This document shows, in pieces, positions 4,714 to 19,206 of a DNA stretch of 64,000 bases. The first letter of the stretch is position 1. Every line of letters begins with the position of its first letter. A program made the translations under genes and the position numbers. Below the pieces are notes generated by a model, which was not told the DNA's origin, did no database searches, and saw nothing but the letters and a program-made list of their open reading frames with translations. Source of the stretch: a virus; IMG/VR virus record IMGVR_UViG_3300045988_130116. One strand, written 5' to 3'.

Positions 4714-4715
4714 CC

Positions 4716-5672: not shown

Positions 5673-5683
5673 GTATTATTTTT

Positions 5684-6025: not shown

Positions 6026-7036
6026 CTACCATATTTTATACACCTTTTCACCAGTCATAGTAAGTCTTCTTTCATCATAGTTAACTCTGTATAACCAACA
6101 ATCGTTATCAATAACGTATTTATCTTGATAAGTGTAAAGATACATACCGCTTACTAATTCGACAAACTCATCAGTTAATGGAGTTTTATCTGCTAAAGCC
6201 TCTATGAAGTCTAATTTATCCATACGTTTATTTTCTACAAAGAAAGCTTGGAAATAGTCTTCAAAGTTATCAAAATAAAGTGCAGGGTCATCAACTATAT
6301 CGTCATAAGAAGGTGATAAATCTTTTTTTACTTTTTCAGCAGATTTATAATTAAATTTTACATATTTTTTTGTGTTTGTGTCCCAATAATATCCGTAGTC
6401 ATCATCCCATTCATGGTCATAACTATAAGGATTAGAAAAACTTTTATTATAGTAATATTTATCCCAACTTCTAGGTTCATAAGAATCGTTAGAGAATATC
6501 CAACCTTCTTCTTTTTCTATGAAGTCTCCATATAATTCTATTTCTCCATTAGATTTAAGAATACAGAATTTACCGTTGCCCTTCATTTCTTTAGCTAAAA
6601 CATCTTTATTATTAAGTCTCCATAAGCTAAATACATCATCTAATATAAATCTTTGTGTGTCACTCATTTTTTCTTCCCAAGCATATTTACCTATAATACC
6701 ATTGTGAACGATACCTGATCCACAATTTATTTCAGTTTTTCTTAATTTTTTCAATTTGTTAGTTATTGGGAATGGATGGCAAGTTTCCTTACTTATTCCA
6801 CCACTTGTTGAAATTCTAAAGTGCATTACTAAATTCTTTTCTTCAAGATGTTTATTATCCCAAAGTTCTTCTAGTCTTTCAATATATTTGTCTACATCAA
6901 AGAACCCTTTTTCTATGTGAACCTTATTATTGTCCACAAACATGAATCCTGCTCCGTCAGAATTATGAAGGAAACAGTTTTTTACATACTCTTCATTTAA
7001 TTTATACCCTTTTTCTTTTACAGCTATTATACACAT
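6026..7036 (-). CDS. class II (Ntn-type) glutamine amidotransferase-like protein with an extra C-terminal domain
   Basis: Starts MCIIAV (nucleophile Cys right after Met). Also has NSDGAGFMFV, HFRISTSGG, CHPF and IVHNGII, as in GATase_4/YafJ-type proteins. Promoter at 7080-7108, terminator at 5953-5972. Confidence 0.6.
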   Translation of the reverse strand: MCIIAVKEKGYKLNEEYVKNCFLHNSDGAGFMFVDNNKVHIEKGFFDVDKYIERLEELWDNKHLEEKNLVMHFRISTSGGISKETCHPFPITNKLKKLRKTEINCGSGIVHNGIIGKYAWEEKMSDTQRFILDDVFSLWRLNNKDVLAKEMKGNGKFCILKSNGEIELYGDFIEKEEGWIFSNDSYEPRSWDKYYYNKSFSNPYSYDHEWDDDYGYYWDTNTKKYVKFNYKSAEKVKKDLSPSYDDIVDDPALYFDNFEDYFQAFFVENKRMDKLDFIEALADKTPLTDEFVELVSGMYLYTYQDKYVIDNDCWLYRVNYDERRLTMTGEKVYKIW

Positions 7037-7079
7037 TCCACATCACTCCTTTTAATATCTCATTTCTTACTATACTTAT

Positions 7080-7108
7080 ATTATATCATAAATTAATACT
7101 GTTGTCAA
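7080..7108 (-). promoter_or_regulatory. consensus early promoter (TTGACA-17-TATAAT)
   Basis: Hand-checked spacing. Upstream of the glutamine amidotransferase-like gene. Confidence 0.75.
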
Positions 7109-7321
7109 GTGTTTTTTGATTTTTTTTAAAACTTTTTTATTTTTTTTTATTGACTTATAAATATAATATAGTATAATAATATATGTAGTAAATAACAAGT
7201 GTGCTTAATGTTTCACTTAAAGATAAAATTAATATTCCTTAAATTATATATTAAATTAATGTTACACTTGTTATTTATTTATTCTATTTATTATTGTTTA
7301 TTTTTTTTGCATTATTTTTAC

Positions 7322-7398
7322 ATAAAGTCGAAGGATTTTTTGAGTCCTCCCCTCTTTGTGCAAAATAAAGTCGAAGGATTTTTAGGGTCTTACCCCCT
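7322..7398. repeat. two direct repeats ATAAAGTCGAAGGATTTTT..(G)AG(G)TC.T.CCCCT inside the orphan transcript
   Basis: Copies at 7322-7353 and 7365-7398. Confidence 0.6.
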
Positions 7399-7410
7399 AT
7401 TCATACTTAT

Positions 7411-7439
7411 ATTGTATCATAAATTAATAGTGTTGTCAA
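7411..7439 (-). promoter_or_regulatory. orphan consensus early promoter (TTGACA-17-TACAAT) with no ORF downstream
   Basis: Same cassette as the others. The next ~300 nt leftward (7110-7410) have no RBS-ATG and contain two direct repeats. Confidence 0.65.
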
Positions 7440-7721
7440 GTGTTTTTTTATATATTCCTATGATTTTTTTATTTTCTATGGAATTGAAAAAATTTTTCTA
7501 TATGATTTTTTTATTCTTATATAGGAAAATATTTTTCTTTTTAATTGAACACTTGAACATATGTTCATATATTCAATTTTCCATATGAATATATATTCAT
7601 ATATTGTCAACCTTAATAAATAAAGTAAATTTTAAAAATACTTAATTTTATTAAAGTTCTGTATTCCATTGTAAAGAGTTATAAAAAAGAATTGATATAA
7701 TATATCATTAAGATGTTAACG

Positions 7722-8240
7722 CCTCTTAAATTGGCGTATAGAAGGTATTTTAGTTATATTCTATATTATTAAATTAAAACATTGAATTGACTTTATTTTT
7801 TAAATTGACTAGAATTATTTGAATTGTTTATACAAACGTGAATTTTCTGACAATTCAAAATACTCTTATTTCTTCTATATATATTATAACATTTTTGACC
7901 TAAAAAGTCAAGGAAAAGTTTTTGACACTATTCGACAATATTATACAAAAAAACAACCGTTCTATTTTAGCGTGTAAAAGGCTTTAAAAAGTTTTTAATA
8001 CTAATATATAGCTAATAGCTAAAACCTCTTAAATTGGCGTATAGAAGGTGTTTTAGTTATATTGGATAATTTAATATATTGTAAAATACGATATTTTATA
8101 TATGTATATTGTATACAAATATAGGTATATGCTAAAATATCCTTATATTTCAATTTTAAAGAGTTAGTATATATTAATCATATATTTATATTAAGATGTA
8201 TTTATAAGTGTCTTAAAAAGGCGTATAGAAGGTTATTATT
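7722..8240. repeat. three dispersed copies of CTTAAA(TT/AA)GGCGTATAGAAGGT...TTTTA
   Basis: 7722-7760 and 8025-8063 match at 38 of 39 positions. 8211-8240 is a shorter, diverged copy. Confidence 0.6.
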
Positions 8241-8297
8241 TTAAGATTTTTAAAAATATTACTGTAATTTATTCAAATTATAAAAAGTGACCTAAAA

Positions 8298-8312
8298 TGA
8301 TAATCATTATCA
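8298..8312. promoter_or_regulatory. perfect Fur-box palindrome TGATAATCATTATCA
   Basis: Exact match to the 7-1-7 Fur box TGATAATNATTATCA. Confidence 0.6.
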
Positions 8313-8413
8313 TTTATAATATTGTATAAAAACTTGTTTAATGTATACAAGTTGTTTCTTTATAAGAGTATTTAAAATTTAAATTATTTCCGAGTAGGCC
8401 GCTTTTTTCTAAT

Positions 8414-8428
8414 TAATAATCATTCTCA
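8414..8428. promoter_or_regulatory. Fur-like box (complement TGAGAATGATTATTA, 13/15)
   Basis: Left arm of the 8414-8559 inverted repeat. Confidence 0.4.
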
Positions 8429-8484
8429 ATTAATAATTATTTTCATCAGGAAGGACCGCAGTCTAATTGAAAATTATTTTCAGT

Positions 8485-8499
8485 TGATAATTATTATCA
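8485..8499. promoter_or_regulatory. perfect Fur-box palindrome TGATAATTATTATCA
   Basis: Exact match to the 7-1-7 Fur box. Lies at the centre of the 8414-8559 inverted repeat. Confidence 0.6.
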
Positions 8500-8544
8500 T
8501 AAATTCTGATCATCTGAGGGTCCGCAGTGAGAATTGATATTAAT

Positions 8545-8559
8545 TGAGAATGATTATCA
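8545..8559. promoter_or_regulatory. Fur-like box TGAGAATGATTATCA (14/15)
   Basis: Right arm of the 8414-8559 inverted repeat. Confidence 0.45.
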
Positions 8560-8575
8560 CCTCTGGTTACTTCTG

Positions 8576-8607
8576 AAAAAAAAATACCTTTGGAAAAATC
8601 CAAAGGT
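8576..8607 (-). terminator. rho-independent terminator ending the amidoligase cassette
   Basis: 9-bp stem ACCTTTGGA/TCCAAAGGT with a 4-nt loop (8586-8607), then a T run on the minus strand (plus-strand A run 8576-8584). Confidence 0.75.
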
Positions 8608-8625
8608 TTAAAGTAAGTTATTTAA

Positions 8626-9852
8626 TTAAAAAGTGTCATTTAAATAGTGAGATAGATATATATCTAAATTTTGATATTCTTCAAGGTTATTATCAATTAT
8701 TTCTCTAATCTTATATTTATTGTTAGTTTTATTAATATCATTAAATAATAGTAATTTAATTAACTCTATATTTGCAAATATATTTCTAAAAGATAAAGTC
8801 CCCTTAAAAAGTCTAAATTCTATTGTAGAGTAGTTATTAAAATTAATTATATGATATCTATCTCCCCACTTGTTTTCTAATGCTATATTTTCCAAGTTAC
8901 CTAAACTAGTGTCATAAAATGGAGACCATCTATTAAAACGACCTATATCCCTTTGACTATAGTCAAATATAAAGTCCTTGTTTAATTCCATAAATTGAAG
9001 AATATCTATCATTCTACTTTTTACAAAATTATTTTTAGTTATATGAATATGACCTCCACAAGAAGAATCTATATCAAAGTTAGCGCATTTTAAAAATCTA
9101 GTCATTTTTGGAATTACATCGTATGCAACATTAAAGCCTAACGGTTGACTTATAAACTCTATACCATTATTTAACGACCCATCCTCTTCTATATGGAAAT
9201 ATTTTTGCCAATTAAAATTATTATTGTCACAAATTTGTATAAAATCATTTATACATTCATTTATATTTGAGCGTGTTATTACCTCTAATTCAAGTCCTAA
9301 AAATACGCCTTCTTTACTCTCTCCAATAGGACTATATTCTCCATCCCATTCATGATAACTGTATACAAAGTCGTTGCAAGTCTCACAGTAGCAATCAATA
9401 CAATAAAACTCTCCATCCCCTTCATTATAATATAAGTCTTCTATATCGATAGCCTCTTCACAGTTGTAGCAATAATTCCACGCCTCACTCCTAGAAGAAT
9501 AACAATAAGTATTGCATTCAACCTCAACAAATTCATCGGTAGAGGCTTCTAATTCGTGATGGAAATCGCAATAATCAATATAATATCTTAAAGAAAAATC
9601 GTTAATACAGTCTCTACATCCGTCGAATATATTTATATAGATATTGTCTTCTAATACATGGATTTCTTCTATATCGTCTATTATTTCAACGTCGTTGATA
9701 TCGTCTTTATTATCTAATTCATTGATAGAGTCCATTATATTCTCCATATAAGGACAAGTATTACAAGAACAACTACCTTTTAAATTTTTCATAAATTCAA
9801 CGCTAAAATTATTATTTTCTAATACCTCAACTAATAAACTATTATTTAACAT
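8626..9852 (-). CDS. Cys-rich N-domain fused to an amidoligase (Amidoligase_2 / GCS2-like) domain
   Basis: The C-terminal half has GLELEV, EEDGSLNNGIEFISQP, SSCGGHIHI and TIEFRLFKGTL, which fit the amidoligase_2 motif order. The N-terminal ~170 aa has many CxxC pairs. Terminator at 8576-8607. Confidence 0.65.
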   Translation of the reverse strand: MLNNSLLVEVLENNNFSVEFMKNLKGSCSCNTCPYMENIMDSINELDNKDDINDVEIIDDIEEIHVLEDNIYINIFDGCRDCINDFSLRYYIDYCDFHHELEASTDEFVEVECNTYCYSSRSEAWNYCYNCEEAIDIEDLYYNEGDGEFYCIDCYCETCNDFVYSYHEWDGEYSPIGESKEGVFLGLELEVITRSNINECINDFIQICDNNNFNWQKYFHIEEDGSLNNGIEFISQPLGFNVAYDVIPKMTRFLKCANFDIDSSCGGHIHITKNNFVKSRMIDILQFMELNKDFIFDYSQRDIGRFNRWSPFYDTSLGNLENIALENKWGDRYHIINFNNYSTIEFRLFKGTLSFRNIFANIELIKLLLFNDINKTNNKYKIREIIDNNLEEYQNLDIYLSHYLNDTF

Positions 9853-9882
9853 ATAATTTTACCTCCTAATTATTTATTATAG

Positions 9883-9910
9883 TTAGGGAATTTTTAAAGG
9901 TATTCCCTAA
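9883..9910 (-). promoter_or_regulatory. conserved leader hairpin upstream of the amidoligase gene
   Basis: 9-bp stem TTAGGGAAT/ATTCCCTAA with a 10-nt loop, ~30 nt upstream of the RBS. A near-identical copy lies at 10593-10620. Confidence 0.5.
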
Positions 9911-9925
9911 AAACCTTTTATAAAA

Positions 9926-10564
9926 TTATTGATTATTGTTTAAATAATCATTATATAATTTTTTCCAATAATTCCATATACAACAACAACAATTTGAAAA
10001 ATCATTATTTTTACATTCGCAATATTTTTTTGGAATTTCTATACCTTCTTTTTGGTATGCTCTAATTAAACAAGTCGATTCTTTCTCAAAGGCTTGATTA
10101 ACATAACTAGAAAAGAATCGGTCATTCCTTAAATATAGAGGGTCACAAATACAGTTTAGGTCATTTTTAAAAGTAGATATTTTTTCAATTTCTTTACTTA
10201 CAAATATTGAAAAATTCATTTTTTCACCATAACCACAAATGCAAGTATTTTCATTTATCCACAAAAATTTGTGAGGTAATACTTCATAACGATTATGTTT
10301 ATTACAATATTCCATAAAATACCATCCATTATATTCCATACAGTTTTTACATTCCATAAAAACATTTACTTGTTTTATATTTTCTTTATCGTCATACATA
10401 TAGCAATTTACTATTTTATTATTAGTGCTTTTATTTTCTAATAAATTGTTTAAAATATTACAGTTATTACACTTGCAAAAAGCCTCACTTTCAAGTTGTT
10501 TAAAGACTTGTATATCTAAATTTAAGCCTTCTAATAAACTTACTAATTCTTTATTGTTTAACAT
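9926..10564 (-). CDS. Cys-rich protein, paralog of the N-domain of the amidoligase protein
   Basis: MLNNKELVSLLEGLNLDIQVFKQLESEAFCKCNNCN aligns with MLNNSLLVEVLENNNFSVEFMKNLKGSCSCNTCP of 8626-9852. Both genes have a near-identical 65-nt leader. Confidence 0.75.
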   Translation of the reverse strand: MLNNKELVSLLEGLNLDIQVFKQLESEAFCKCNNCNILNNLLENKSTNNKIVNCYMYDDKENIKQVNVFMECKNCMEYNGWYFMEYCNKHNRYEVLPHKFLWINENTCICGYGEKMNFSIFVSKEIEKISTFKNDLNCICDPLYLRNDRFFSSYVNQAFEKESTCLIRAYQKEGIEIPKKYCECKNNDFSNCCCCIWNYWKKLYNDYLNNNQ

Positions 10565-10592
10565 ATAATTTTACCTCCTAATTGTTTTATAG

Positions 10593-10620
10593 TTAGGGAA
10601 TTTATAAAGGTATTCCCTAA
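10593..10620 (-). promoter_or_regulatory. conserved leader hairpin upstream of the Cys-rich paralog
   Basis: Same stem as 9883-9910. The loop differs at one position. Confidence 0.5.
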
Positions 10621-10647
10621 AAACCTAATTTTAAAAATATTGTCAAC

Positions 10648-10824
10648 TTATAAATAATAAATTTCATTTAAAGTGTCTATTATATAAGATACATTTAATC
10701 CACTTTGAACGCCTACAAAGTCCGTAATATCCATTAATTTTAAACTAATAGGATTTTTAAAAGTTACTATTAAAGCTACTATTATGCAAATTGTTTTTAC
10801 TATTCTATTTATTTTTTTATTCAT
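10648..10824 (-). CDS. small membrane protein (58 aa), not in the ORF track
   Basis: Own reading. ATG at complement 10822-10824 is preceded by AAAGGGAGGG. Sequence MNKKINRIVKTICIIVALIVTFKNPISLKL... contains one hydrophobic helix. Confidence 0.5.
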   Translation of the reverse strand: MNKKINRIVKTICIIVALIVTFKNPISLKLMDITDFVGVQSGLNVSYIIDTLNEIYYL

Positions 10825-10840
10825 ATAAAGCCCTCCCTTT

Positions 10841-11197
10841 TTATTTTACTTTGCAAAAATCGTAAATTTTTTCTTGTCTTGTTCTATAATAGCAAGTTAA
10901 AATATTGCCACCAGTTAAACTTAAAACTACCATCAAAGTGGCTTGTTTACCTTCTATTATATCGTCTTTACGGTTACCGATGGTTAATACCTCCTCCATC
11001 GTACCCTTCTTTTTTTTGTTTTCCCTTATTTCATATAATAGGATTTTTCCATTTTGGGCTACGCTTCTAATGTATTCTTTATCTATAAAAACTGTATTTC
11101 TTTTTAATGCATGATAGGAAACATAAAAGCTTTTTTTTCTAGCGTTATCAAGTTTTATTTTATCTTTTTTATTTAAGTCTTTATATCTATACTTCAT
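10841..11197 (-). CDS. DUF4258-like (RelE/ParE-fold toxin-like) protein
   Basis: YVSYHALKRNTVFIDKEYIRSVAQNGKILLYE ... LMVVLSLTGGNILTCYY resembles the H-x-x-x-R ... ITvY pattern of DUF4258 proteins. This is a weak assignment from memory. Confidence 0.35.
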   Translation of the reverse strand: MKYRYKDLNKKDKIKLDNARKKSFYVSYHALKRNTVFIDKEYIRSVAQNGKILLYEIRENKKKKGTMEEVLTIGNRKDDIIEGKQATLMVVLSLTGGNILTCYYRTRQEKIYDFCKVK

Positions 11198-11208
11198 TTT
11201 ATCCCCTC

Positions 11209-11574
11209 CTATTTAACAAATATACATCTTTTATAGACTGTACTTGGTCGCCAATTTCTACCATCCGATGTACAGTAAACAACTTTATGACTTCTTGAAA
11301 ATTCATATAAACTTTTTAAGGTAAACTCTTCATTAGTATTTTTAATTCTAACTCTAGCACCTATTGTAATTCTTGGGTCATGGTCAATAGTTAAACATTC
11401 ATATTCTTTTTTATCCATGAATTGATTTTCTACTTTAAATATTAATTCTATTTTGTTTTCTTCATTTATTAAGTTACTTATACACTTTCCAAAGTACATC
11501 CCTTTTTCTTCTAATTCATGAATTTGTTTTCTTATTTCTTTTTTATTTAATCCTATTAATTTTATATATTTCAT
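11209..11574 (-). CDS. hypothetical protein (121 aa), first gene of the amidoligase cassette
   Basis: ORF track. RBS AAGGAGG. Confidence 0.75.
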   Translation of the reverse strand: MKYIKLIGLNKKEIRKQIHELEEKGMYFGKCISNLINEENKIELIFKVENQFMDKKEYECLTIDHDPRITIGARVRIKNTNEEFTLKSLYEFSRSHKVVYCTSDGRNWRPSTVYKRCIFVK

Positions 11575-12662
11575 TTTATTTCCTCCTTATTATTTATTTT
11601 ACTTATTCACTTTTATAAAATTATTGGTCACTAGAATTGTAACCGATATAATTAAGATTTTTAAAGAATGGATTTTTTAATATTATTGTCAACTCTTATT
11701 ATGTTATCTTATTATGTATTATTTAATTGTTAATATAATAGTAACACAAAAAAGTATAAAATACAACTTACAATTGATACAACTTTTTAAAAATGTTATT
11801 TACATATGATATTAAAATAAGATGGAAATTAATATTTGTATATGAAAAATATCCAAAAACTAGCACGTTTTTTTGTTAGGCAATTTATAAAAAAATTATT
11901 TACAAGTGATAAATAAAAATCAAATAAATTTTATCAAATAGTAAGTATTTTTTTATAATGCTTTACAAAAATTTACCATGATTTCTGAAAAATTTATATT
12001 TTTAAAATATATTGTTTATCAAAAATCACTTGTTAGTTTACAAGTGTTTAGATTTTTTACTCTATTTTTATATTTGTAAATTAAAAATAATAAAAATTTT
12101 TACATTATAATTATTATAGTTATTTTTAGAAAAATATAAAAAAAAATTATTTTATTTGTAAGTGTTTTATAGTATAATATTGAATAATTGTAAATTATAC
12201 CTATCTTTATATATATAAATAAAAAGATGTTAGAATAAAGATAGTTAAAAAGGTCATGATTTTATTAATTATCGTATTTCATTAGCTCAAATGTATAACG
12301 TTATAAGGCTTTTGGTGTGCTATCGTTCTGAATAACACGAACTATTATTTGTTATAATTCGGAAATGTATGTATCAAGGTAATTTACGACTTTATTCAAC
12401 ACTAATCGACGCTTCTGTACGCCCTTGTGAGGCGTTCTAAAAAGTTGCCTTTATATTCTATCGTACGATTTTAAAAGTACATTTAACCTTATGAACGCCT
12501 ATATAAGAATAGGCAAGAATAAATTAACAAGTAACAACAAGAATATGTTGCAAGTTGTTAATTATAACTTGCAATTATTATACAATTTATTTCATAGTTA
12601 GATAGTAGGAAATCAGGAAGAATGTAAATGATAATGGCTCTCAACTGCGGTCCATGAATAGT

Positions 12663-12677
12663 TGAGAATGATTATCG
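12663..12677. promoter_or_regulatory. Fur-like box TGAGAATGATTATCG (13/15), part of the composite repeat
   Basis: Preceded by CTGCGGTCCATGA at 12645-12657. Confidence 0.4.
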
Positions 12678-12743
12678 CCACAGACTGCGGTCCATGAATA
12701 AGCGTAAATGAAATCCATTATCAACTGATATTGTATTCTCAAT

Positions 12744-12758
12744 TGAGAATGATTATCG
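12744..12758. promoter_or_regulatory. Fur-like box TGAGAATGATTATCG (13/15), part of the composite repeat
   Basis: Preceded by CTGCGGTCCATGA at 12685-12697. Confidence 0.4.
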
Positions 12759-12879
12759 AATGATTCAAAGTACCAACTTACAATTGTATACCACTATACA
12801 AGTTTTTGGAATTACTATAATTCCTATTAAAATAGTATGATATTATCATAATGATAATGATTAATGTATACAATGTAAA

Positions 12880-12894
12880 TGATAATCGTTATCG
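12880..12894. promoter_or_regulatory. Fur-like box TGATAATCGTTATCG (13/15)
   Basis: Immediately upstream of CTGCGGTCCATGA at 12896-12908. More GATAAT-type hexamers lie at 12838-12866. Confidence 0.4.
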
Positions 12895-12913
12895 ACTGCG
12901 GTCCATGAGTAGG

Positions 12914-12928
12914 TGAGAATGGTTATCG
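12914..12928. promoter_or_regulatory. Fur-like box TGAGAATGGTTATCG (12/15)
   Basis: Follows CTGCGGTCCATGA at 12896-12908. Confidence 0.3.
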
Positions 12929-13226
12929 AATGGTAAAAAGTAACAACTTGTATACAAAATACAATATGTTTATATTTGTTTTTGTATACACTACAATTCA
13001 TAGTGGAATAGCAGAGAATAGAATAAGTATTAATTGATAATGTTTCTTAAATAAGTTAATGTTTTAATTAATAATAATAATAGAATAATAATAATATTAT
13101 TTTGATAATCAAAATATTTGATAATCATAACATTATCAATATGATAACTAAATTATACAATATACATAATTGCCAACTTGTTTTATTAATACAATATGTT
13201 TATATATACTATTGTATACATTAATA

Positions 13227-13440
13227 TTATAGTATGTTATATTGTCTTATATATATTATAACGTACTGTACTATTGTATTGTATAGTATAGTATACGATA
13301 TATTATGTATATATGTTATACTATTATGTATTATATTTGTATATGTATTATTATATACGTATTGCATATGTATATATAGTATGTATTGATGTATTATATA
13401 TGATGTATTATTGTATTGCATTGTTATATATAGTATGTAT
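13227..13440. repeat. AT-rich low-complexity tract (degenerate TATGTAT/TTGTAT units), almost C-free on the plus strand
   Basis: By eye there are only about a dozen C in ~210 nt. Confidence 0.7.
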
Positions 13441-13496
13441 TATATAGGTATATATGTTATACCAATGCATTGGTCACTTGATAGGTATAGCAAAGG

Positions 13497-13511
13497 TGAG
13501 AACGATTATCG
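13497..13511. promoter_or_regulatory. Fur-like box TGAGAACGATTATCG (12/15)
   Basis: Same family as the 12663 box, same orientation. Confidence 0.3.
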
Positions 13512-13701
13512 ATTGATAGCCTTGCATTTTTTGGTTAACCATTTTTGTATTTTGGGTTAACGTATTTTTTTATTGGAATGTATGAATAATTGAATATGTT
13601 TTTATATGAATATGTATTCATGTATTTGGGGATTTTTGGGTTGAATAAGTTCCTTCATTTTTACACGACAAAAAAATTTTTTCCTTCATTGACTAATCAT
13701 T

Positions 13702-13716
13702 CGATAATCATTCTCA
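13702..13716. promoter_or_regulatory. Fur-like box, inverted copy (complement TGAGAATGATTATCG)
   Basis: Opposite orientation to the 12663-13511 copies. Confidence 0.4.
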
Positions 13717-13886
13717 CCCTCATTTAATTAAGCTTCTTATATGAATTTGATAATCATAATCAACTACAATTTTTTTCTTTATATATCAAATATTTTTCCA
13801 TTCAAATATTTTGATTATCAAAGTATTTAATGTCGGATAATAGTATTGTTATAGGTCATTAATAGGGGGGATGTTTCATAATACTT

Positions 13887-13905
13887 GATAATGATAATCA
13901 TTCTG
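13887..13905. promoter_or_regulatory. 19-bp Fur-box-like site GATAATGATAATCATTCTG (17/19 to GATAATGATAATCATTATC)
   Basis: Overlaps CTGCGGCCC at 13903-13911. Confidence 0.5.
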
Positions 13906-13947
13906 CGGCCCCTAGCTACTACACTCAAGCACCATTTTTTCTCAAAG

Positions 13948-14056
13948 CACCATTTTTCACACCATTTTCCCATTATCTCCAATCAATCCTTCCACCTCCA
14001 CAACACCCCAAATATCCCTTTTTCAACCCTTCATATCTCATTAAAAACAATTAATT
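13948..14056. repeat. 109-nt G-free, C-rich tract on the plus strand with CACCATTTT repeats
   Basis: No G between 13948 and 14056. The minus strand is correspondingly C-free with GGG/GGGG runs. Confidence 0.7.
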
Positions 14057-14345
14057 GTATTAAACGAAAGAATAACAACAGTAATTATATATAGTTCCCA
14101 AATATAGGTAAATACAATAAAACAACCTTTTACATATACATAACATTGTATACAATAAAAGATTAAAGTCTCAATAAACACAACAAAAATGATATTAAAG
14201 GTAGGGGAGGGGTGGTTTGCATACTTTTTCTAAAGTTGAATAATAATGACCTTCTGTGTGCCATTTTAAGAAGATAAAATCAATAAGTTAAGTATTTGTA
14301 TTAAGAGTATTTTTTAGGTATATTAGAGAGGAAATATAAAAGGGC

Positions 14346-14380
14346 AAAAAAAAAGAGGAAAACATTTTCAGTTCTCCTCT
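14346..14380 (-). terminator. rho-independent terminator ending the long leftward operon
   Basis: Stem AGAGGA/TCCTCT (14354-14380), then a 9-nt T run on the minus strand (plus-strand A run 14346-14354). Confidence 0.6.
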
Positions 14381-14387: not shown

Positions 14388-14612
14388 TTACCAATTATCT
14401 TGACCACATCTAATATAACAGTAATGTGAATTATCACACATATATATTCTTTCTTTTTTATTACGAGACTTATATCTCCAAGGTTTCCCACATTGAGGGC
14501 ACATACCATGATTCCATCTTCTTTTCTCAAGTTTACTAAGTATGAGATATAATACTATAAGAAGGATTATCCATACTATAATTACTTGAGGTAGTATATT
14601 TGCTAATGTCAT
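14388..14612 (-). CDS. small membrane protein with a Cys/His-rich C-terminus (paralog pair, copy 2)
   Basis: N-terminal TM helix, then WNHGMCPQCGKPWRYKSRNKKERIYMCDNSHYCYIRC. Terminator at 14346-14380. Confidence 0.7.
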   Translation of the reverse strand: MTLANILPQVIIVWIILLIVLYLILSKLEKRRWNHGMCPQCGKPWRYKSRNKKERIYMCDNSHYCYIRCGQDNW

Positions 14613-14848
14613 TATTTTCTCCCATCTACATTATAATAAATTTCACACCAATGACCATGATTACAGGTATAAACTCTTTCTCCTCTTTTATTTTCATATA
14701 CATATCTCCAAGGTTCATTATGATAACTACACATACCATTGTTCCATATTTTCTTATCCTCATATCTTCTTATTAAAGAGTCTATTATGTTTACAATTAT
14801 AACTCCAATTAAAGTTCCACCCATTGTACATAATACTGTTTCTATCAT
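14612..14848 (-). CDS. small membrane protein with a Cys/His-rich C-terminus (paralog pair, copy 1)
   Basis: N-terminal TM helix, then WNNGMCSYHNEPWRYVYENKRGERVYTCNHGHWCEIY. Aligns with the 14388-14612 product. Confidence 0.7.
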   Translation of the reverse strand: MIETVLCTMGGTLIGVIIVNIIDSLIRRYEDKKIWNNGMCSYHNEPWRYVYENKRGERVYTCNHGHWCEIYYNVDGRK

Positions 14849-14859
14849 TTACATCACTC

Positions 14860-15399
14860 CTAATCTAAATATTTTTCTAAATTTAAATAATTTGCAACAT
14901 CTTCTAGCGATTTAAAATATTTACCACCATTTCTTTCTACCATAACACCAACTTTGTCTAAAGATTTCATTTGTGCTTCATTAAATGTTAGCTTTGGAAG
15001 AGGTAATTCTGTAAAATCACAAATTGGATTCCTATCTTCGGTTAACACGCAAAATACGGTTTTATTGGGTCTTTTATTTGAATCATCTACGACTTCTGCG
15101 ATACTATAAACTCCTGTCATTCTAGGTGTTATTACATATAAACAATAATCACACGTCTCTCTTTGTTTTAATTCTTCTTGATAACATTCTTCTGTCCAAT
15201 CATCTACTACTGGGTTAAAATAATCTATATTAAGCATTGGTATTAATTTGTCTCTCCAAGTAGACTCATTACAAGTTCCACCTAGAAATACTTTCTTATA
15301 ATTTTTACCTGTATATCCTTTGCCCCCACAGAAACAACAAGTCTCTCTTTGAAATCCCAGTTTCCCAGTTCCTTCACAATGTTTACATATTTCTTTCAT
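14860..15399 (-). CDS. CxxCxGxG zinc finger fused to a nucleoside 2-deoxyribosyltransferase-like domain
   Basis: CKHCEGTGKLGFQRETCCFCGGKG followed by VFLGGTCNESTWRDKLIPMLNIDYFNPVVDDW and YVITPRMTGVYSIAEV. This resembles the Nuc_deoxyri_tr2 family as I remember it. Confidence 0.45.
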   Translation of the reverse strand: MKEICKHCEGTGKLGFQRETCCFCGGKGYTGKNYKKVFLGGTCNESTWRDKLIPMLNIDYFNPVVDDWTEECYQEELKQRETCDYCLYVITPRMTGVYSIAEVVDDSNKRPNKTVFCVLTEDRNPICDFTELPLPKLTFNEAQMKSLDKVGVMVERNGGKYFKSLEDVANYLNLEKYLD

Positions 15400-15442
15400 T
15401 GCATATACCTCCTAAAAATACTTTTTTCATATTCATCTCTCC

Positions 15443-15757
15443 TTAATCTAAATCTATACCTAATTCTTTACATTTCGCTCTAACGTATTCTATTGATACA
15501 TACTCGTCTTTGCCTTTTGTATAAAAAACTTCATTTCCTTCAAAGGCACATCTCCAATTAAATCCTTCTCCATTTGAATATTTTATTAAATTATCATAAT
15601 AATCCTCAAAACACCAACTATAGAAACGAGGACAACAAGGTTCTGCAACACTATAGATACCTTCATTTTGTAAAGATATTCTATATGATTCTTGTTGTTC
15701 TTTATGTGATTTACATTCTATTATAAAATCTGAATAAGCTTTTTCTTTACTAATCAT
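15443..15757 (-). CDS. hypothetical protein (104 aa)
   Basis: ORF track. RBS AAGGAG. Confidence 0.75.
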   Translation of the reverse strand: MISKEKAYSDFIIECKSHKEQQESYRISLQNEGIYSVAEPCCPRFYSWCFEDYYDNLIKYSNGEGFNWRCAFEGNEVFYTKGKDEYVSIEYVRAKCKELGIDLD

Positions 15758-16199
15758 TATTTATCTCCTTTAGCCATTTACTGGCATCTAGTTTATTATT
15801 ATATCTCTCTTTATTTTCTAATAGGTGAACAAATGCTTTAAGATAGGTCTCAAATGTCTCCTTCACAGGAAAGTTAATTATCGTCAAATTATCGCCATTA
15901 TACTCAAAATTTAAAGTTATAACTACAGAATTATTCCATTTACCATCAAAAGATTCGCAATTAAAATGTTCATAATTACAATGTTTTAAAGAGCTAATAT
16001 CAATATTCTTTTCTATTCCCTGTTCTCTTTTAATTTTATTTCTTTTCCTAATTTGTTCTGACCTACATTCTCTACAATAAGATTGAGGTACTATCTTACC
16101 ATTAGGTTTGAATCTAAACCCGAATAACTCCATTATCTTGTCTTCTCCCAAAGCTGACTTTCCGCAACAAGGACACTCTGCATATTTCCCATGTGGCAT
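15750..16199 (-). CDS. hypothetical protein with an N-terminal zinc ribbon
   Basis: CPCCGK...CRECR. The start is moved to ATG 16197-16199 (MPHGKY), preceded by GGAGGAG. Confidence 0.7.
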   Translation of the reverse strand: MPHGKYAECPCCGKSALGEDKIMELFGFRFKPNGKIVPQSYCRECRSEQIRKRNKIKREQGIEKNIDISSLKHCNYEHFNCESFDGKWNNSVVITLNFEYNGDNLTIINFPVKETFETYLKAFVHLLENKERYNNKLDASKWLKEINND

Positions 16200-16200
16200 A

Positions 16201-16635
16201 TTATATCTCCTCCTCATATTCTGTAAATATATCTACTATATAAAATCCACATAAGCTAACATATGTAAATTCATATATTTTATCAGAATTCTTTTCATCT
16301 ATTAATGCTGAATCTTTAGGGGTAATAAACATACTTCCGTTTTCAGATTCATACCAAAGAGGAATTCTCTTTTTAGCACATTTTTTAATAGTCTCAATAT
16401 CGCAATCTACAACAAGACTAAATTCATTAAAAGAACATTTCAAACTATCATCATTATAGAACCTTCTCATAAAAATATATTTTCTTGTACTGTCTTTAGG
16501 GGTTGGAGATTCCTTTTTATCATTTTTAATTAAGGCATTAGATAATGTATTTATTATATTATTATTAAATTCAAAATCATTTAATGCCTTACCCGCAAAA
16601 TTCATATCATCTAATTTTTTACCTAAATAACTCAT
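16201..16635 (-). CDS. hypothetical protein (144 aa)
   Basis: ORF track frame. The start is moved to ATG 16633-16635 (MSYLGKK), preceded by GAGGAG. Confidence 0.7.
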   Translation of the reverse strand: MSYLGKKLDDMNFAGKALNDFEFNNNIINTLSNALIKNDKKESPTPKDSTRKYIFMRRFYNDDSLKCSFNEFSLVVDCDIETIKKCAKKRIPLWYESENGSMFITPKDSALIDEKNSDKIYEFTYVSLCGFYIVDIFTEYEEEI

Positions 16636-16646
16636 ATTATCGCTCC

Positions 16647-17228
16647 TCAAACTATTGAATATTTTATACTCTTAGTGCAATTCCCATTTTTAATATACTC
16701 TTTTCTTATTAAATTATTGGTTTCTAAGAAGTTGGTTATTTTCGTTATCTTATTCAAATTCGTACTACTTCCAGAAGCCAACCCTATATTATCACATATG
16801 TAATTTCTAGTAACTATCTTACTTCCATTCTTACATATCATTTTTAACAACATATAAGTCTTTATAGTTGCAGAATCTCTATTTCTTAAAAGTATTTTAA
16901 TAATGTTGTCATCTATTAATATATATCCTTTACTGTTTTTATTGCTATAAGAAATAGTATATGTATTTTCTTTTTTTATTTTTTTTACCTTAATTAATTT
17001 TTTGTGTTTGGTTGACATTTTCATTAAAGATTTATATGTGGTTGCCCATGATTTGTGGCTTATCTTCTCTATATCTTCTTTTTCATTTCTTATAGTTCTG
17101 CTATCTATTGATATATTCTTTTTCTTTAAGTTATTTGTTCCAAAACAAGATGCTACCATTAGAGCATGGTAATCACAGTTTTTATCTTTAAGAAATTCTT
17201 TTTCAATTATTACTGGTATTTTTTTCAT
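16647..17228 (-). CDS. hypothetical basic protein (193 aa)
   Basis: ORF track. Lys-rich, possibly DNA-binding, but no motif recognised. Confidence 0.7.
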   Translation of the reverse strand: MKKIPVIIEKEFLKDKNCDYHALMVASCFGTNNLKKKNISIDSRTIRNEKEDIEKISHKSWATTYKSLMKMSTKHKKLIKVKKIKKENTYTISYSNKNSKGYILIDDNIIKILLRNRDSATIKTYMLLKMICKNGSKIVTRNYICDNIGLASGSSTNLNKITKITNFLETNNLIRKEYIKNGNCTKSIKYSIV

Positions 17229-17253
17229 GATATAATCCCTTTCTTTGTATTTA

Positions 17254-17616
17254 TTATCCCCTTATACTAACTATTTCAAATTTAAGCATAAGATTTGAAA
17301 CTTCACCATTCAATATCTTTATAATTTCTCCGTCAGGTATTCTACAAGTATATGTTAATACTTTATTAGTTTTGCTTCCATCATCTGATATAAGAGCGTG
17401 TATAAGTCTTATATAAAAAAGATTATCTCTAAAATAATAATGTTTACGGATTATTTTTAAAAGACATTCATATTGTTCTTTTGTTAAGACTTCATTATTT
17501 ATTTCAAGATAAAGTTTATCTTCTTTTTTAACAATCTTGTACCAATTTATATTATTAAATTCTACTCCGTTAATCATAGCTTCACAATTTTTACAAGTAT
17601 AATATTTATCGTTCAA
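17254..17616 (-). CDS. hypothetical protein (120 aa)
   Basis: ORF track. Confidence 0.7.
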   Translation of the reverse strand: MNDKYYTCKNCEAMINGVEFNNINWYKIVKKEDKLYLEINNEVLTKEQYECLLKIIRKHYYFRDNLFYIRLIHALISDDGSKTNKVLTYTCRIPDGEIIKILNGEVSNLMLKFEIVSIRG

Positions 17617-17631
17617 TATATCATCTCCAAT

Positions 17632-17874
17632 CTAATTACCATCTATAAATTCAATTCCATTACCATTTAGAACATGAATATTATCATCAAATTCATCTTC
17701 CTCTACATCAATTTCTTCAAGTCTCAATTTTATGTATTTATCTCCGTCATAAAAAGAATACACCGGAGATTTATTATCAATCATTATTTTTATATTTGTC
17801 TTTAATTCTTCATTTGTCTGCAATTCTTTGATTAAATTATCATAACCTTGAACATAAAGCAGCTTATTCTTCAT
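17632..17874 (-). CDS. hypothetical acidic protein (80 aa)
   Basis: ORF track. Confidence 0.65.
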   Translation of the reverse strand: MKNKLLYVQGYDNLIKELQTNEELKTNIKIMIDNKSPVYSFYDGDKYIKLRLEEIDVEEDEFDDNIHVLNGNGIEFIDGN

Positions 17875-18151
17875 CTTCTATCACCACTTCTGTCTCTTCT
17901 TCAAATTGAGGAACTAACATTACTTTATGTTCCTTACCATTCCATTTTACTGTCTCTAATTTTTCATACCAAGCATCTGTTATATTTGCTTTTCTTAGTT
18001 CTCCACTGCCGTCATCAAATTTAAGGTTTTCTAAAAGATAATCCATAAATTCACCTGCTGTTTCATCTGCTTCTGCCTTAAAGAAATCTGCATATTTTGT
18101 TTTATCTTGTTCGCTTGTTACTATAACATAATGATATAAATATTTTTCCAT
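17864..18151 (-). CDS. hypothetical acidic protein (95 aa)
   Basis: ORF track. Overlaps neighbours, consistent with translational coupling. Confidence 0.7.
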   Translation of the reverse strand: MEKYLYHYVIVTSEQDKTKYADFFKAEADETAGEFMDYLLENLKFDDGSGELRKANITDAWYEKLETVKWNGKEHKVMLVPQFEEETEVVIEDEE

Positions 18152-18418
18152 TTAATCCTCCCAATTAACTTTTATTTTAAACTCATTTGGTTGCAAATCT
18201 TCATCTACTTTTACAGGTATACCTTCAAAAGTCTTTATATAACCGTTTACAACTTTATTATAATCTTCAATATCATCTAAATTTAAATCGTCTGCAAAGA
18301 AGTTTTTATTATCTTCTTTACTTATAAATATTTCTATAGAAGTCCCAAGACCGCTGTGTGTTTTTAAAATATCCTCAGCGTCTACTAAGGCTCTAAAAAT
18401 ATTAACCATTTTATTCAT
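18152..18418 (-). CDS. hypothetical protein (88 aa)
   Basis: ORF track. Confidence 0.7.
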   Translation of the reverse strand: MNKMVNIFRALVDAEDILKTHSGLGTSIEIFISKEDNKNFFADDLNLDDIEDYNKVVNGYIKTFEGIPVKVDEDLQPNEFKIKVNWED

Positions 18419-18641
18419 TCTCTTCTACTCCTTTTGGTATTACATGATATTTATTAAATAAGAAATCGACTAAACAACCTATATATGTCTCTAAAGGACA
18501 TATTCTGTCACATTCTTTATTATTCTCACAATAATCATTAAATCTTTTATTAAATACTTCTTCAGTTGTAAAATTCTTAATCTCTTTAATGTTTATTTTA
18601 TCGCCATCTTGTTCAAATGTACATAAAACTTTTTCATTCAT
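18411..18641 (-). CDS. hypothetical protein (76 aa)
   Basis: ORF track. Confidence 0.65.
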   Translation of the reverse strand: MNEKVLCTFEQDGDKINIKEIKNFTTEEVFNKRFNDYCENNKECDRICPLETYIGCLVDFLFNKYHVIPKGVEENE

Positions 18642-18650
18642 TTACATCAC

Positions 18651-18977
18651 CTATCTTAAATAATTATTCATAGATTCGCATGAATCGCAAGTCACTGTAG
18701 CCGCATATATCTCTTTATCAAAAAGTCTTTTTAATACACACTCTAAATCGTCTATAAGTAATTTATCAAAATTACTTAATCCTCTAAGCTTTTCTTTAGA
18801 ATTAATTGAACTAAATGAAATTGGATCAGGAATATCTAATCCCATTTCATTAGCCGTATCTTTAATCATTCTTCTTTGTGTTTCACTACAACAAATTATA
18901 GGATATTTAAATTCAGCAGATTTTTTAATAAGATATGTTGTTTTTCCTCTACCTCTATTCATTTGTATTATTTCCAT
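18651..18977 (-). CDS. small P-loop-containing protein (108 aa)
   Basis: Walker A-like NRGRGKTTYL near the N-terminus and LLIDDLE later (Walker B-like). Confidence 0.5.
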   Translation of the reverse strand: MEIIQMNRGRGKTTYLIKKSAEFKYPIICCSETQRRMIKDTANEMGLDIPDPISFSSINSKEKLRGLSNFDKLLIDDLECVLKRLFDKEIYAATVTCDSCESMNNYLR

Positions 18978-19206
18978 TGCATCTACCCCTTTTTATAAAT
19001 TCTACATCATAAACTTCCCAACCCCATAACACATCAAGAAAATACATTAACAGGGATTGACCTGGCTCTACATAATGATTAAATCTATAAGTAACTTTAG
19101 TCTTCTCTAACCATATAAGTTTACCATTTACTACTCTAGGTAAAATATTATTACGAGTACGAATTTTCATATCCCCTCTATGAGGGGTGTTCATTTTAAA
19201 TCTCAT
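18955..19206 (-). CDS. hypothetical protein (83 aa)
   Basis: ORF track. Confidence 0.6.
   Translation of the reverse strand: MRFKMNTPHRGDMKIRTRNNILPRVVNGKLIWLEKTKVTYRFNHYVEPGQSLLMYFLDVLWGWEVYDVEFIKRGRCNGNNTNE

What the first reader, a model, noticed from the sequence alone, without database searches (positions are those of the whole stretch)
12620..13915. Composite repeat (GC-rich 9-mer CTGCGGTCC plus TGAGAATGATTATCG box) flanks the amidoligase cassette in opposite orientation
To the right of the cassette, the plus strand carries CTGCGGTCCATGA three times (12645, 12685, 12896) and CTGCGGCCC once (13903). Each lies beside a TGAGAATGATTATCG-type box (12663, 12744, 12914, 13887). Extra boxes occur at 13497 (same orientation) and 13702 (inverted).

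To the left of the cassette, the plus strand carries the complement, GGACCGCAG (8453) and GGTCCGCAG (8519), again beside boxes. The GC 9-mer stands out in ~29% GC DNA. Its orientation is reversed on the two sides of the 8626-11574 gene block.

This layout fits three options:
- Iterons of a replication origin.
- Recombination sites that could invert or excise the cassette; a tyrosine recombinase gene sits at 1-387.
- Centromere-like partition sites.
Basis: seen in the sequence. Interest (0 to 1): 0.65.

Follow-up and report, generated by a model that had tools for sequence, protein, structure and literature searches.

The report
Fur-type operator arrays flanking a phage cassette
The repeated "boxes" on both sides of the amidoligase cassette of this common ~145-kb gut phage are arrays of about 20 binding sites of the kind used by bacterial Fur-family metal-sensing repressors, not recombination sites, which suggests that the phage ties two large non-coding control regions to its host's metal or oxidative-stress sensing.

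Summary
The 9-mer CTGCGGTCC and the 15-nt boxes are strongly over-represented and confined to two ORF-free gaps (7589-8625 and 11575-14290) that flank the minus-strand cassette.

The interpretation changes. The box is a 7-1-7 palindrome, TGA(T/G)AAT-N-ATT(A/C)TCA, the Fur-family operator consensus. Two copies are perfect. Neighbouring boxes sit 6, 17 or 34-35 nt apart.

- In metagenome contigs the same phased double box lies beside FUR-family genes (FUR/ZnuA; FUR-KatG/OsmC).
- It also occurs in ORF-free gaps of unrelated phages, including cultured coliphages.
- Box arrays are kept in all four lineages of this phage genus.
- The GC 9-mer varies by lineage: 4+2, 3+1, 0+1 and 0 copies. It is the GC-rich part of a spacer that always abuts a half-box.
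- Cassette order and orientation are identical in 16 assemblies, so inversion or excision is not supported.
- No FUR homologue, par gene, rep gene or DnaA-box cluster was found nearby.

Best reading: arrays of operators for a host Fur/Zur/PerR-type repressor. Their physiological role is inferred, not shown. It could be promoter control or transcription roadblock, repressor titration, or origin architecture next to a unique AT-rich repeat block.

The parts
8298..8312 (.). Isolated perfect 7-1-7 box TGATAATCATTATCA. It matches 17 of 19 positions of the classical 19-bp Fur consensus from 8293.
8414..8499 (.). Left array: boxes at 8414, 8431, 8468 and 8485, as two pairs phased 17 nt apart. The 8485 box is a perfect match to TGATAATNATTATCA.
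   Evidence: TRF period 17
8453..8461 (-). GC 9-mer CTGCGGTCC (minus strand) between the two box pairs.
8519..8527 (-). GC 9-mer variant CTGCGGACC. Its CGCAG end abuts TGAGAAT. The context CTGCGGAnn(N6-7)GATGATCA is kept in the window and L210; L215 keeps a decayed form (CTGCGGATT...GATGATGATCA); L213 does not keep it.
8545..8559 (.). Box TGAGAATGATTATCA, next to the cassette terminator.
8586..8607 (-). Intrinsic-terminator-like hairpin ending the cassette transcript.
8626..11574 (-). Cassette: amidoligase (408 aa), 212-aa, 58-aa, 118-aa and 121-aa genes. The 118-aa, 58-aa and amidoligase genes are kept in the window strains, L213 and L215; the divergent L210 lineage has a 48-aa ORF, a 113-aa relative of the 118-aa protein (37% identity) and the amidoligase in a different order. 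The cassette is much more diverged than its flanks.
12190..12600 (+). Conserved, hairpin-rich non-coding stretch just inside the right array. It is 73% identical to lineage L209. Its function and strand are uncertain.
12621..12677 (+). Composite unit 1: box 12629, the spacer ACTGCGGTCCATGAATAGT containing the 9-mer at 12645, and box 12663. Box starts are 34 nt apart.
12661..12758 (+). Composite unit 2: 9-mer at 12685, degenerate box 12709, a type II spacer without the 9-mer, and box 12744.
12846..12866 (.). Hexamer-type Fur-like run (ATAATGATAATGATTAAT). It overlaps the -10 of a predicted minus-strand promoter (12879-12851).
12872..12928 (+). Composite unit 3: box 12880, 9-mer at 12896, box 12914.
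13298..13455. AT-rich block of about seven degenerate 21-24-nt tandem repeats. It overlaps the only stretch of the window that passes the TA/AT-step richness filter (13281-13400). Three IMG/VR contigs end at its right edge and a fourth ends about 300 bp to its left.
13497..13511 (.). Distal box TGAGAACGATTATCG.
13702..13762 (.). Distal boxes at 13702 and 13748.
13886..13911 (.). Two overlapping 7-1-7 boxes offset by 6 nt (17 of 19 to the classical Fur box), followed by the 9-mer variant CTGCGGCCC.
14354..14380 (-). Terminator-like hairpin ending the upstream minus-strand operon. It marks the right border of the large gap.

Best explanation
The 15-nt box is a Fur-family operator: a 7-1-7 inverted repeat, TGA(T/G)AAT-N-ATT(A/C)TCA. 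The two ORF-free regions that bracket the cassette each carry an array of such operators, 6 on the left and at least 12 on the right. Boxes are spaced 6, 17 or 34-35 nt apart.

The most likely binder is a Fur-family metalloregulator of the host. Fur, Zur and PerR-type proteins cannot be told apart without knowing the host. When metal-loaded, it would coat these regions, occlude promoters embedded in them or block read-through. It would release them under metal limitation or oxidative stress.

The GC 9-mer is not an independent recombination core. It is the GC-rich part of a 19-nt spacer that fills every second 17-nt slot. Its CGCAG end lies within 0-7 nt of a box or half-box (directly abutting it in four of the six copies), and it varies by lineage.

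**Shown:** motif identity, spacing grammar, clustering, conservation across the genus, association of the same pattern with FUR genes in bacteria, and fixed cassette orientation.

**Inferred:** which protein binds, and what binding does.
For: **Clustering**
- Twelve of 13 matches to TGATAATNATTATCA (at most 2 mismatches) lie in the two gaps, against 2.8 expected; two are perfect.
- Ten of 11 matches of at least 15/19 to the classical 19-bp Fur box are also in the gaps, with 17/19 at 8293 and 13887.
- The motif fits the published C. difficile Fur consensus TGATAATVAWHWTCA (PMC6311696).

**Conservation across the genus**
- Every lineage has 10-16 boxes in the large gap and 4-6 in the small gap.
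- Lineages are 75-82% identical in a neighbouring protein.

**Same pattern in bacteria**
- The exact phased double box in metagenome contigs sits within 60 nt of a FUR-family gene in 3 of 21 loci: FUR-KatG/OsmC, and twice FUR/ZnuA.
- It also sits in other bacterial promoter regions.

**Shared grammar**
- Spacing of 6/17/34 nt and T/G at position 4 are shared by this genus, other phages and the bacterial loci.
- Cultured coliphages carry 4-5 phased Fur boxes in an ORF-free gap.

**Controls and negatives**
- No FUR homologue is encoded in the window or the fetched flanks.
- As a negative control, 82 kb of the related AT-rich phage phiCD211 has a single box.
- A predicted minus-strand promoter (12879-12851) is flanked and overlapped by boxes.
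Against:
- The host is unknown. The only label, a Melainabacteria MAG, may be a binning artefact.
- About 81 kb of the phage genome was not examined for its own FUR-like gene.
- The arrays lie more than 1 kb from the cassette start codon, and no promoter-operator pair is proven.
- Three unrelated phages combine the boxes with iteron-like AT-rich repeats and a G-rich block. This hints at a role beyond simple repression.
- The exact reuse of the 9-mer in inverted orientation on both sides is non-random and not explained by this model.
Confidence: 0.5

Rival explanations
1. The large gap is the lytic replication origin. The AT-rich block of about seven 21-24-nt repeats (13298-13455) would be the unwinding or iteron element. 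The G-rich minus-strand block (13915-14060), downstream of minus-strand promoters, could seed an R-loop. The boxes would be sites for an architectural or initiator protein, possibly Fur itself.
For: - The AT-rich repeat block overlaps the only stretch of the 64 kb that passes the TA/AT-step richness filter, and that feature is kept in lineages L213 and L215.
- It is flanked by boxes and by a 24-nt, 96% inverted repeat (13098-13121 / 13802-13825).
- IMG/VR contigs end at 13415, 13455 (fused to an Illumina adapter) and 13487.
- L217, L220 and the coliphage gap combine boxes with iteron-like repeats.
Against: - There is no DnaA-box enrichment.
- No replication-initiator gene is next to the gap.
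- The boxes are palindromes with the grammar of bacterial FUR operators.
- A second array lies 4 kb away on the other side of the cassette.
- Contig ends are also what assemblers produce at low-complexity AT-rich repeats.
Confidence: 0.2
2. The arrays act as a decoy. About 20 sites per genome, multiplied by phage copy number, would titrate the host Fur-family repressor and derepress host metal uptake or stress genes to the phage's benefit.
For: - The number and density of near-consensus sites far exceed what one promoter needs.
- Strictly lytic coliphages, which have no lysogeny decision to regulate, also carry arrays.
- Titration of Fur by multicopy Fur boxes is an established effect. It is the basis of the FURTA assay (own knowledge).
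Against: This is purely inferential. Site counts in the coliphage (5 in the 45 kb scanned) are modest. Nothing distinguishes it computationally from ordinary regulation.
Confidence: 0.1
3. The boxes are bound by a phage-encoded dimeric DNA-binding protein. It would be either a master repressor, analogous to SPbeta MrpR on SPBRE elements, or a centromere-binding protein of a plasmid-like prophage.
For: - The phage is SPbeta/phiCD211-like.
- SPbeta uses a 15-bp repeated element bound by a recombinase-like repressor (PMC10516654).
- A recombinase-like ORF lies at 1-387.
- Large C. difficile relatives are reported as plasmid-like, extrachromosomal circular phages (PMC5786514 title and abstract).
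Against: - SPBRE sites are spread over about ten promoters. Here the boxes are confined to two gaps, whereas the repeated early promoters at 1-7500 lack them.
- Unrelated phages with no detectable shared protein have the same boxes.
- The same pattern flanks FUR genes in bacteria.
- No par gene was found near the arrays.
Confidence: 0.1
4. The inverted 9-mers are crossover sites of a site-specific recombinase that inverts or excises the cassette.
For: - The exact 9-mer occurs in opposite orientation on the two sides.
- The cassette is hypervariable between lineages: amidoligase 40-53% identical against 80-94% for the flanking p336.
Against: - Order and orientation are the same in all 16 loci.
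- The 9-mer is absent in L215 and reduced in L210, although the cassette is present.
- Sequences flanking the left and right copies differ.
- No recombinase gene is adjacent.
- Cassette divergence is better explained by homologous exchange or fast evolution.
Confidence: 0.03

Closest known systems
Fur-family operators (Fur box; 7-1-7 model of B. subtilis Fur/PerR/Zur; 19-bp E. coli Fur box; C. difficile consensus TGATAATVAWHWTCA, PMC6311696)
   Same: - A 15-bp 7-1-7 palindrome with the same consensus.
- Overlapping boxes offset by 6 nt.
- Tandem phased copies, as seen here beside bacterial FUR genes.
   Different: - About 20 copies are concentrated in two long ORF-free regions of a phage, not one to three at a promoter of a metal-homeostasis gene.
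- Many copies carry G at position 4.
- Some slots are filled by a GC-rich spacer.
- The binding protein has not been identified.
Single Fur sites in prophages (for example the Fur-regulated prophage operon noted in C. difficile, PMC6311696; Fur control of stx1, own knowledge)
   Same: Host Fur boxes on phage DNA couple phage gene expression to iron.
   Different: Those are single operators at one promoter. Here there are arrays, conserved across a genus, that bracket a cassette. Similar arrays occur in lytic phages.
SPBRE elements bound by MrpR in Bacillus phage SPbeta (PMC10516654)
   Same: A 15-bp repeated element in intergenic DNA of a related class of large temperate siphophage, serving a repressor.
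   Different: SPBRE sites are dispersed at about ten promoters and are bound by a phage recombinase-like protein. Here the sites are clustered, palindromic and of the Fur type.
Iteron-type origins and plasmid centromeres
   Same: Clusters of repeated binding sites in non-coding DNA next to an AT-rich block.
   Different: The repeats are palindromes rather than direct repeats. There is no adjacent rep or par gene and no DnaA boxes.

Membership tests
Fur-family operator array | 15-bp 7-1-7 inverted repeat matching TGATAATNATTATCA, or the 19-bp GATAATGATAATCATTATC | tested here: met
   There are two perfect copies. Twelve of 13 hits (at most 2 mismatches) lie in the gaps against 2.8 expected. Matches of 17/19 occur at 8293 and 13887.
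Fur-family operator array | Multimer grammar: overlapping boxes offset by 6 nt, and tandem boxes | tested here: met
   Neighbour distances of 6, 17 and 34-35 nt dominate in this genus and equally in the bacterial FUR-linked loci.
Fur-family operator array | The same pattern marks promoters of FUR-family or metal-homeostasis genes in bacteria | tested here: met
   Three of 21 metagenome loci have a FUR-family gene starting within 60 nt. Partner genes are ZnuA, KatG and OsmC.
Fur-family operator array | Bound by a Fur-family protein in a metal-dependent way | not testable with these tools
   This needs EMSA, footprinting or ChIP. The host is unknown.
Fur-family operator array | Operator overlaps a promoter whose output responds to metal | tested here: inconclusive
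   A consensus-scan promoter at 12879-12851(-) is overlapped by boxes.
Invertible or excisable cassette (site-specific recombination) | Both orientations, or an empty site, occur among relatives | tested here: not met
   Sixteen loci from four lineages all have the same order and strand.
Invertible or excisable cassette (site-specific recombination) | Crossover core conserved wherever the cassette is conserved | tested here: not met
   L215 has no 9-mer. L210 has none in the large gap.
Invertible or excisable cassette (site-specific recombination) | Recombinase gene adjacent | tested here: not met
   The nearest integrase-like ORF is at 1-387, about 8 kb away. The cassette genes have no recombinase domain.
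Iteron-type replication origin | Direct repeats in helical phase next to an AT-rich unwinding element and a rep gene, often with DnaA boxes | tested here: inconclusive
   An AT-rich block of about seven 21-24-nt repeats is present. There is no rep gene nearby and no DnaA-box enrichment. The boxes themselves are palindromes.
Plasmid or phage partition centromere | Repeat array next to parA/parB-type genes | tested here: not met
   No par-type domain was found in the ORFs scanned: the cassette and its neighbours and the small minus-strand ORFs of 389-5611 and 14388-19206. Only a weak ScpB-like PHROG hit occurs at 16647-17228.
SPBRE/MrpR-type repressor elements | Motif present at many early promoters across the genome | tested here: not met
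   The boxes are confined to two gaps. The repeated early-promoter elements at 1-7500 lack them. The SPBRE sequence itself was not compared.

The most novel reading that the evidence does not exclude
Large phages of very different hosts carry dense arrays of Fur-family operators as a dedicated module. Examples are this gut phage genus, several uncultured phages, and E. coli Stephanstirmvirinae. The module would either titrate the host's metal-sensing repressor during replication, reprogramming host iron, zinc or peroxide regulons, or recruit that repressor as an architectural factor of the phage origin. It would not simply regulate one phage promoter.
Probability: 0.15. Interest if true: 0.8.

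Novelty: new variant of a known kind. Interest (0 to 1): 0.55.

Why it matters
Fur boxes are textbook elements. Conserved arrays of about 20 of them in the non-coding control regions of a prevalent human-gut phage genus do not seem to have been described. Neither do smaller arrays in unrelated phages, including cultured coliphages. Two full-text searches of the paper library found no such account.

If the host repressor binds, phage behaviour would be wired to metal availability or oxidative stress in the gut, or the phage would manipulate that regulon. The coliphage analogues make the idea directly testable in E. coli.

The result also removes a tempting but unsupported reading, that the cassette is invertible. 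It shows too that the cassette between the arrays is a hot spot of divergence.

Tried and rejected
**Searches that led nowhere**
- An exact 14-mer search for ACTGCGGTCCATGA in IMG/VR gave only chance hits and one coding beta-propeller repeat.
- Megablast and blastn of the gaps against phage and plasmid collections found nothing.
- Rfam found nothing in the gaps.
- Relatives found through the 121-aa protein (L109-L111) and through the deoxyribosyltransferase (L113-L191) are not syntenic and lack the boxes.

**Ideas considered and dropped**
- A long inverted duplication of the two gaps: only short motifs are shared.
- Hairpin RNA from box-spacer-box: the pairing is a by-product of the palindromic boxes.
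- Mini-ORFs (ATG GAC CGC AGT...) on the minus strand of the right-hand 9-mers: there is no Shine-Dalgarno sequence, and the left-hand copies lack the ATG.
- A Chi-like role for the 9-mer: considered but untestable here.
- cre/CcpA, FNR, LexA, CodY and DnaA consensus sequences were compared by eye or by scan and do not fit (for DnaA).

**Unresolved or negative**
- Contig ends at 13415-13487, one fused to an adapter, could be a physical terminus or an assembly break at low complexity.
- An ncRNA at 12190-12600: the RNAalifold covariation term is +0.69, which is inconclusive.
- phiCD211 has no comparable array.
- Small ORFs in the gaps show no pattern that separates coding from nucleotide conservation.
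Full report
**1.
- CTGCGGTCC with at most 1 mismatch occurs 7 times in the window against 0.87 expected. Six copies are at the reported coordinates.
- TGAGAATGATTATCG with at most 3 mismatches occurs 18 times against 3.35 expected. All but one copy lie in two stretches, 8298-8559 and 12663-13906.
- These stretches sit inside two ORF-free gaps, 7589-8625 and 11575-14290.
- The gaps bracket a minus-strand cassette at 8626-11574. It encodes an Amidoligase_2 protein of 408 aa plus genes of 212, 58, 118 and 121 aa.
- Terminator-like hairpins at 14380-14354 and 8607-8586, both on the minus strand, close the upstream operon and the cassette.
- A 57-nt composite unit (box, spacer with the 9-mer, box) is present three times on the right.

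**2. The source is a common gut phage.**
- The window is the reverse complement of a 145,488-bp ENA metagenome scaffold; locus L196 is 100% identical.
- The exact 121-aa protein is indexed in 145 blocks of the public assemblies. Contigs of 144.6-148.7 kb break at different places.
- The large terminase is 53% identical to that of the C. difficile phages phiCD211/phiCDIF1296T and 35% identical to SPbeta-like phages.
- Gene order right of 20 kb matches phiCD211: HU protein, tRNAs, exonuclease, terminase, and a group I intron in the tail region.
- The host is unknown. One relative sits in a MAG labelled Candidatus Melainabacteria, which may be a binning artefact.

**3. What the box is.** Read as a palindrome, the box is TGA(T/G)AAT-N-ATT(A/C)TCA.
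- This is the 7-1-7 operator of Fur-family regulators (own knowledge of the B. subtilis Fur/PerR/Zur work).
- It also fits the C. difficile Fur consensus TGATAATVAWHWTCA (PMC6311696).
- TGATAATNATTATCA with at most 2 mismatches gives 13 hits against 2.8 expected. Twelve lie in the two gaps, and 8298 and 8485 are perfect.
- Ten of 11 matches of at least 15/19 to the classical 19-bp Fur box are also in the gaps, with 17/19 at 8293 and 13887.
- At 13886/13892 two boxes overlap with the 6-nt offset of the classical Fur site.
- On the left, boxes form pairs 17 nt apart (8414/8431 and 8468/8485). Tandem Repeats Finder reports period 17 there.
- On the right, box starts are 34 nt apart and a 19-nt GC-rich spacer fills the middle slot.

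**4. An independent test of that identity.** I searched the metagenome collection for the exact phased double box, with the linker chosen so that this phage was excluded. The search returned 21 loci.
- In three loci, from two unrelated organisms, a FUR-family gene starts within 60 nt of the array.
- In the first, FUR lies in an operon with a KatG-type peroxidase, divergent from an OsmC gene.
- In the second, a 68%-GC organism seen twice, FUR lies divergent from ZnuA.
- FUR genes number only a few per genome, so this is far above chance. That last step is an inference.
- Other bacterial hits lie in an ECF-sigma/VWA promoter region and upstream of an oxidoreductase gene.
- The remaining loci look like phage or mobile-element gaps. 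One lies upstream of an ArdC/metallopeptidase gene, one upstream of a SprT-like gene, one has 14 tandem boxes, and one sits in a 2.1-kb ORF-free gap.
- Neighbour distances (6, 17, 34 nt) and the T/G choice at position 4 are the same in this genus, in other phages and in the bacterial loci.
- A BLAST search with a synthetic array found cultured coliphages of the Stephanstirmvirinae, phiWec187 and anhysbys. They carry 4-5 phased near-consensus Fur boxes in an ORF-free gap beside iteron-like repeats.
- As a negative control, 82 kb of AT-rich phiCD211 contains a single box with at most 1 mismatch.
- tblastn with two FUR proteins found no homologue in the window or in the fetched flanks.

**5. Conservation across the genus.** Relatives were collected through exact and homologous neighbour proteins.
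- Strains 94-97% identical keep every element.
- Three more distant lineages (L210, L213, L215) are 75-82% identical in the 193-aa neighbour protein. Each keeps an ORF-free gap of 2.4-2.6 kb with 10-16 boxes and a gap of about 1.5 kb with 4-6 boxes.
- The 9-mer is much less stable. Copy numbers are 4+2 in the window, 3+1 in L213, 0+1 in L210 (with a CCGGACC relic), and none in L215 (CTGCGGTTG and CTGCGGATT relics).
- Spacers come in two related types, ACTGCGGTCCATGARTAGN and ACTGATAYCGTATTCTCAAY.
- In all six window copies the CGCAG end of the 9-mer lies 0-7 nt from a box or half-box.
- The 9-mer is therefore best described as a lineage-specific extension of some operators. Its exact reuse in inverted orientation on both sides is non-random and remains unexplained.

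**6. No sign of inversion or excision.**
- In 16 loci that contain the cassette, the 193-aa gene, the 118-aa gene, the amidoligase and the 336-aa gene have the same order and strand.
- The cassette is a hot spot of divergence. The amidoligase is 40-53% identical and the 118-aa protein 37% identical between lineages. The flanking 336-aa protein is 80-94% identical.
- The 121-aa and 212-aa genes come and go between relatives.
- This pattern fits homologous exchange or rapid evolution between conserved non-coding arms, not site-specific flipping.

**7. What else is in the large gap.**
- Stretch 12190-12600 is conserved and hairpin-rich. It is 73% identical to L209 and shows some compensatory changes, but the covariation term is +0.69, so it is inconclusive.
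- The composite units lie at 12621-12928.
- A block of about seven degenerate 21-24-nt AT-rich repeats lies at 13298-13455. It overlaps the only stretch of the 64 kb that passes the TA/AT-step richness filter.
- A 24-nt, 96% inverted repeat flanks that block (13098-13121 / 13802-13825).
- Distal boxes lie at 13497-13906.
- A block at 13915-14060 is C-rich and G-poor on the plus strand and varies between strains.
- Three IMG/VR contigs from different samples end at 13415, 13455 and 13487. One is fused to an Illumina adapter tail. This could be a physical end or an assembly break at low complexity.
- DnaA boxes are not enriched.
- No rep or par gene was found among the neighbouring ORFs.
- Two unrelated phage contigs (L217, L220) also combine box arrays with iteron-like AT-rich repeats and a G-rich block. 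In L220 this lies 350-700 bp upstream of the terminase genes. An origin or packaging-related architecture therefore cannot be dismissed.

**8. Verdict.**
- The identity of the repeat as an array of Fur-family-type operators is well supported. I put it at about 0.7.
- That a host Fur/Zur/PerR-type repressor binds and controls transcription across the two gaps is the most economical mechanism (0.5), but it is inferred.
- The rivals, in order, are an origin-associated nucleoprotein complex (0.2), a repressor decoy (0.1), a phage-encoded binder such as an MrpR/SPBRE-like repressor or a centromere protein (0.1), and recombination sites (0.03).
- Two full-text searches of the paper library found no description of such arrays in phage genomes. 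I classify this as a new variant of a known kind.

Noticed in passing
window 12190-12600 (+ strand suspected): A conserved, hairpin-rich non-coding stretch between the cassette promoter region and the right box array. It is 73% identical to the divergent lineage L209. Several stems show compensatory changes (for example 12322-12350), and there is a conserved hairpin at 12549-12575. Rfam finds no match and the RNAalifold covariation term is about zero.
   Followed up: partly
window 13298-13455; L112/L204, L206, L207 contig ends: An AT-rich block of about seven degenerate 21-24-nt repeats, overlapping the only stretch of the window that passes the TA/AT-step richness filter (13281-13400). Three independent IMG/VR contigs end at its right edge (13415, 13455, 13487). 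One carries the Illumina adapter tail CGTGTGCTCTTCCGATCT fused at 13455. This may be a genome terminus, an origin or an assembly break.
   Followed up: partly
window 8626-11574 compared with L210, L213, L215: The cassette proteins are far more diverged between lineages than the genes outside the gaps: amidoligase 40-53% and the 118-aa protein 37%, against 80-94% for the 336-aa protein. The 121-aa and 212-aa genes are present or absent in different relatives. The cassette is a diversification hot spot between conserved non-coding arms.
   Followed up: partly
window ~1020-7475, intergenic (for example 7108-7080, 7439-7411, 7911-7883, minus strand): A 50-100-nt element is repeated in at least nine intergenic spots of the early minus-strand region. 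It contains perfect or near-perfect TTGACA-17-TATAAT promoters with a TG extension. It may be the counterpart of repeated early-promoter or SPBRE-type elements. It lacks the Fur-type boxes.
   Followed up: no
window 7724-7746, 8027-8049, 8211-8233 (+) and 14249-14271 (inverted): The 23-nt motif TCTTAAATTGGCGTATAGAAGGT occurs three times left of the left array and once, inverted, at the far right of the large gap. This is a second repeat family with mirrored orientation around the cassette. Its function is unknown.
   Followed up: no
window 8387-8399; L213, L215, L210 left gaps; L216/L219: The motif CCTACTCGG (CCGAGTAGG on the plus strand) follows the box pairs in every lineage. A similar TACTCGGAT repeat precedes the double box in an unrelated phage group (L216, L219, L225, L233), in the opposite relative orientation.
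   Followed up: partly
window 13915-14060: A C-rich, almost G-free block on the plus strand, with CACCATTTTT repeated. It is the most strain-variable part of the gap. Comparable G-rich blocks lie beside box arrays in L217 (2085-2140) and L220 (2245-2280).
   Followed up: no
L245/L246 (Escherichia phage phiWec187, 139100-139207) and L244 (phage anhysbys): Cultured lytic coliphages of the Stephanstirmvirinae carry 4-5 phased near-consensus Fur boxes in an 810-bp ORF-free gap. Three ~60-nt iteron-like repeats follow. GenBank annotates the site only as 'repeat_region' or leaves it unannotated.
   Followed up: partly
window 46257-46546: A group I intron (Rfam, 81.5 bits) lies between the large ORFs 42199-45807 and 46680-52343. 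phiCD211 has an annotated group I intron (28891-29156) between its minor tail protein and tape-measure genes.
   Followed up: no
window 3157-3975, 4716-5321, 6026-7036, 8626-9852: ArdC-N/M78 peptidase, SprT-like, a weak GATase-like hit and the amidoligase genes cluster here. In other mobile elements the same double Fur-type box lies directly upstream of ArdC-metallopeptidase (L238) and SprT-like (L221/L237) genes.
   Followed up: partly
T5-like phages, left terminal repeat (for example MF431730.1 9145-9173): A 29-nt match (93%) to one and a half boxes of the synthetic array lies inside the annotated left terminal repeat of many T5-like phages.
   Followed up: no
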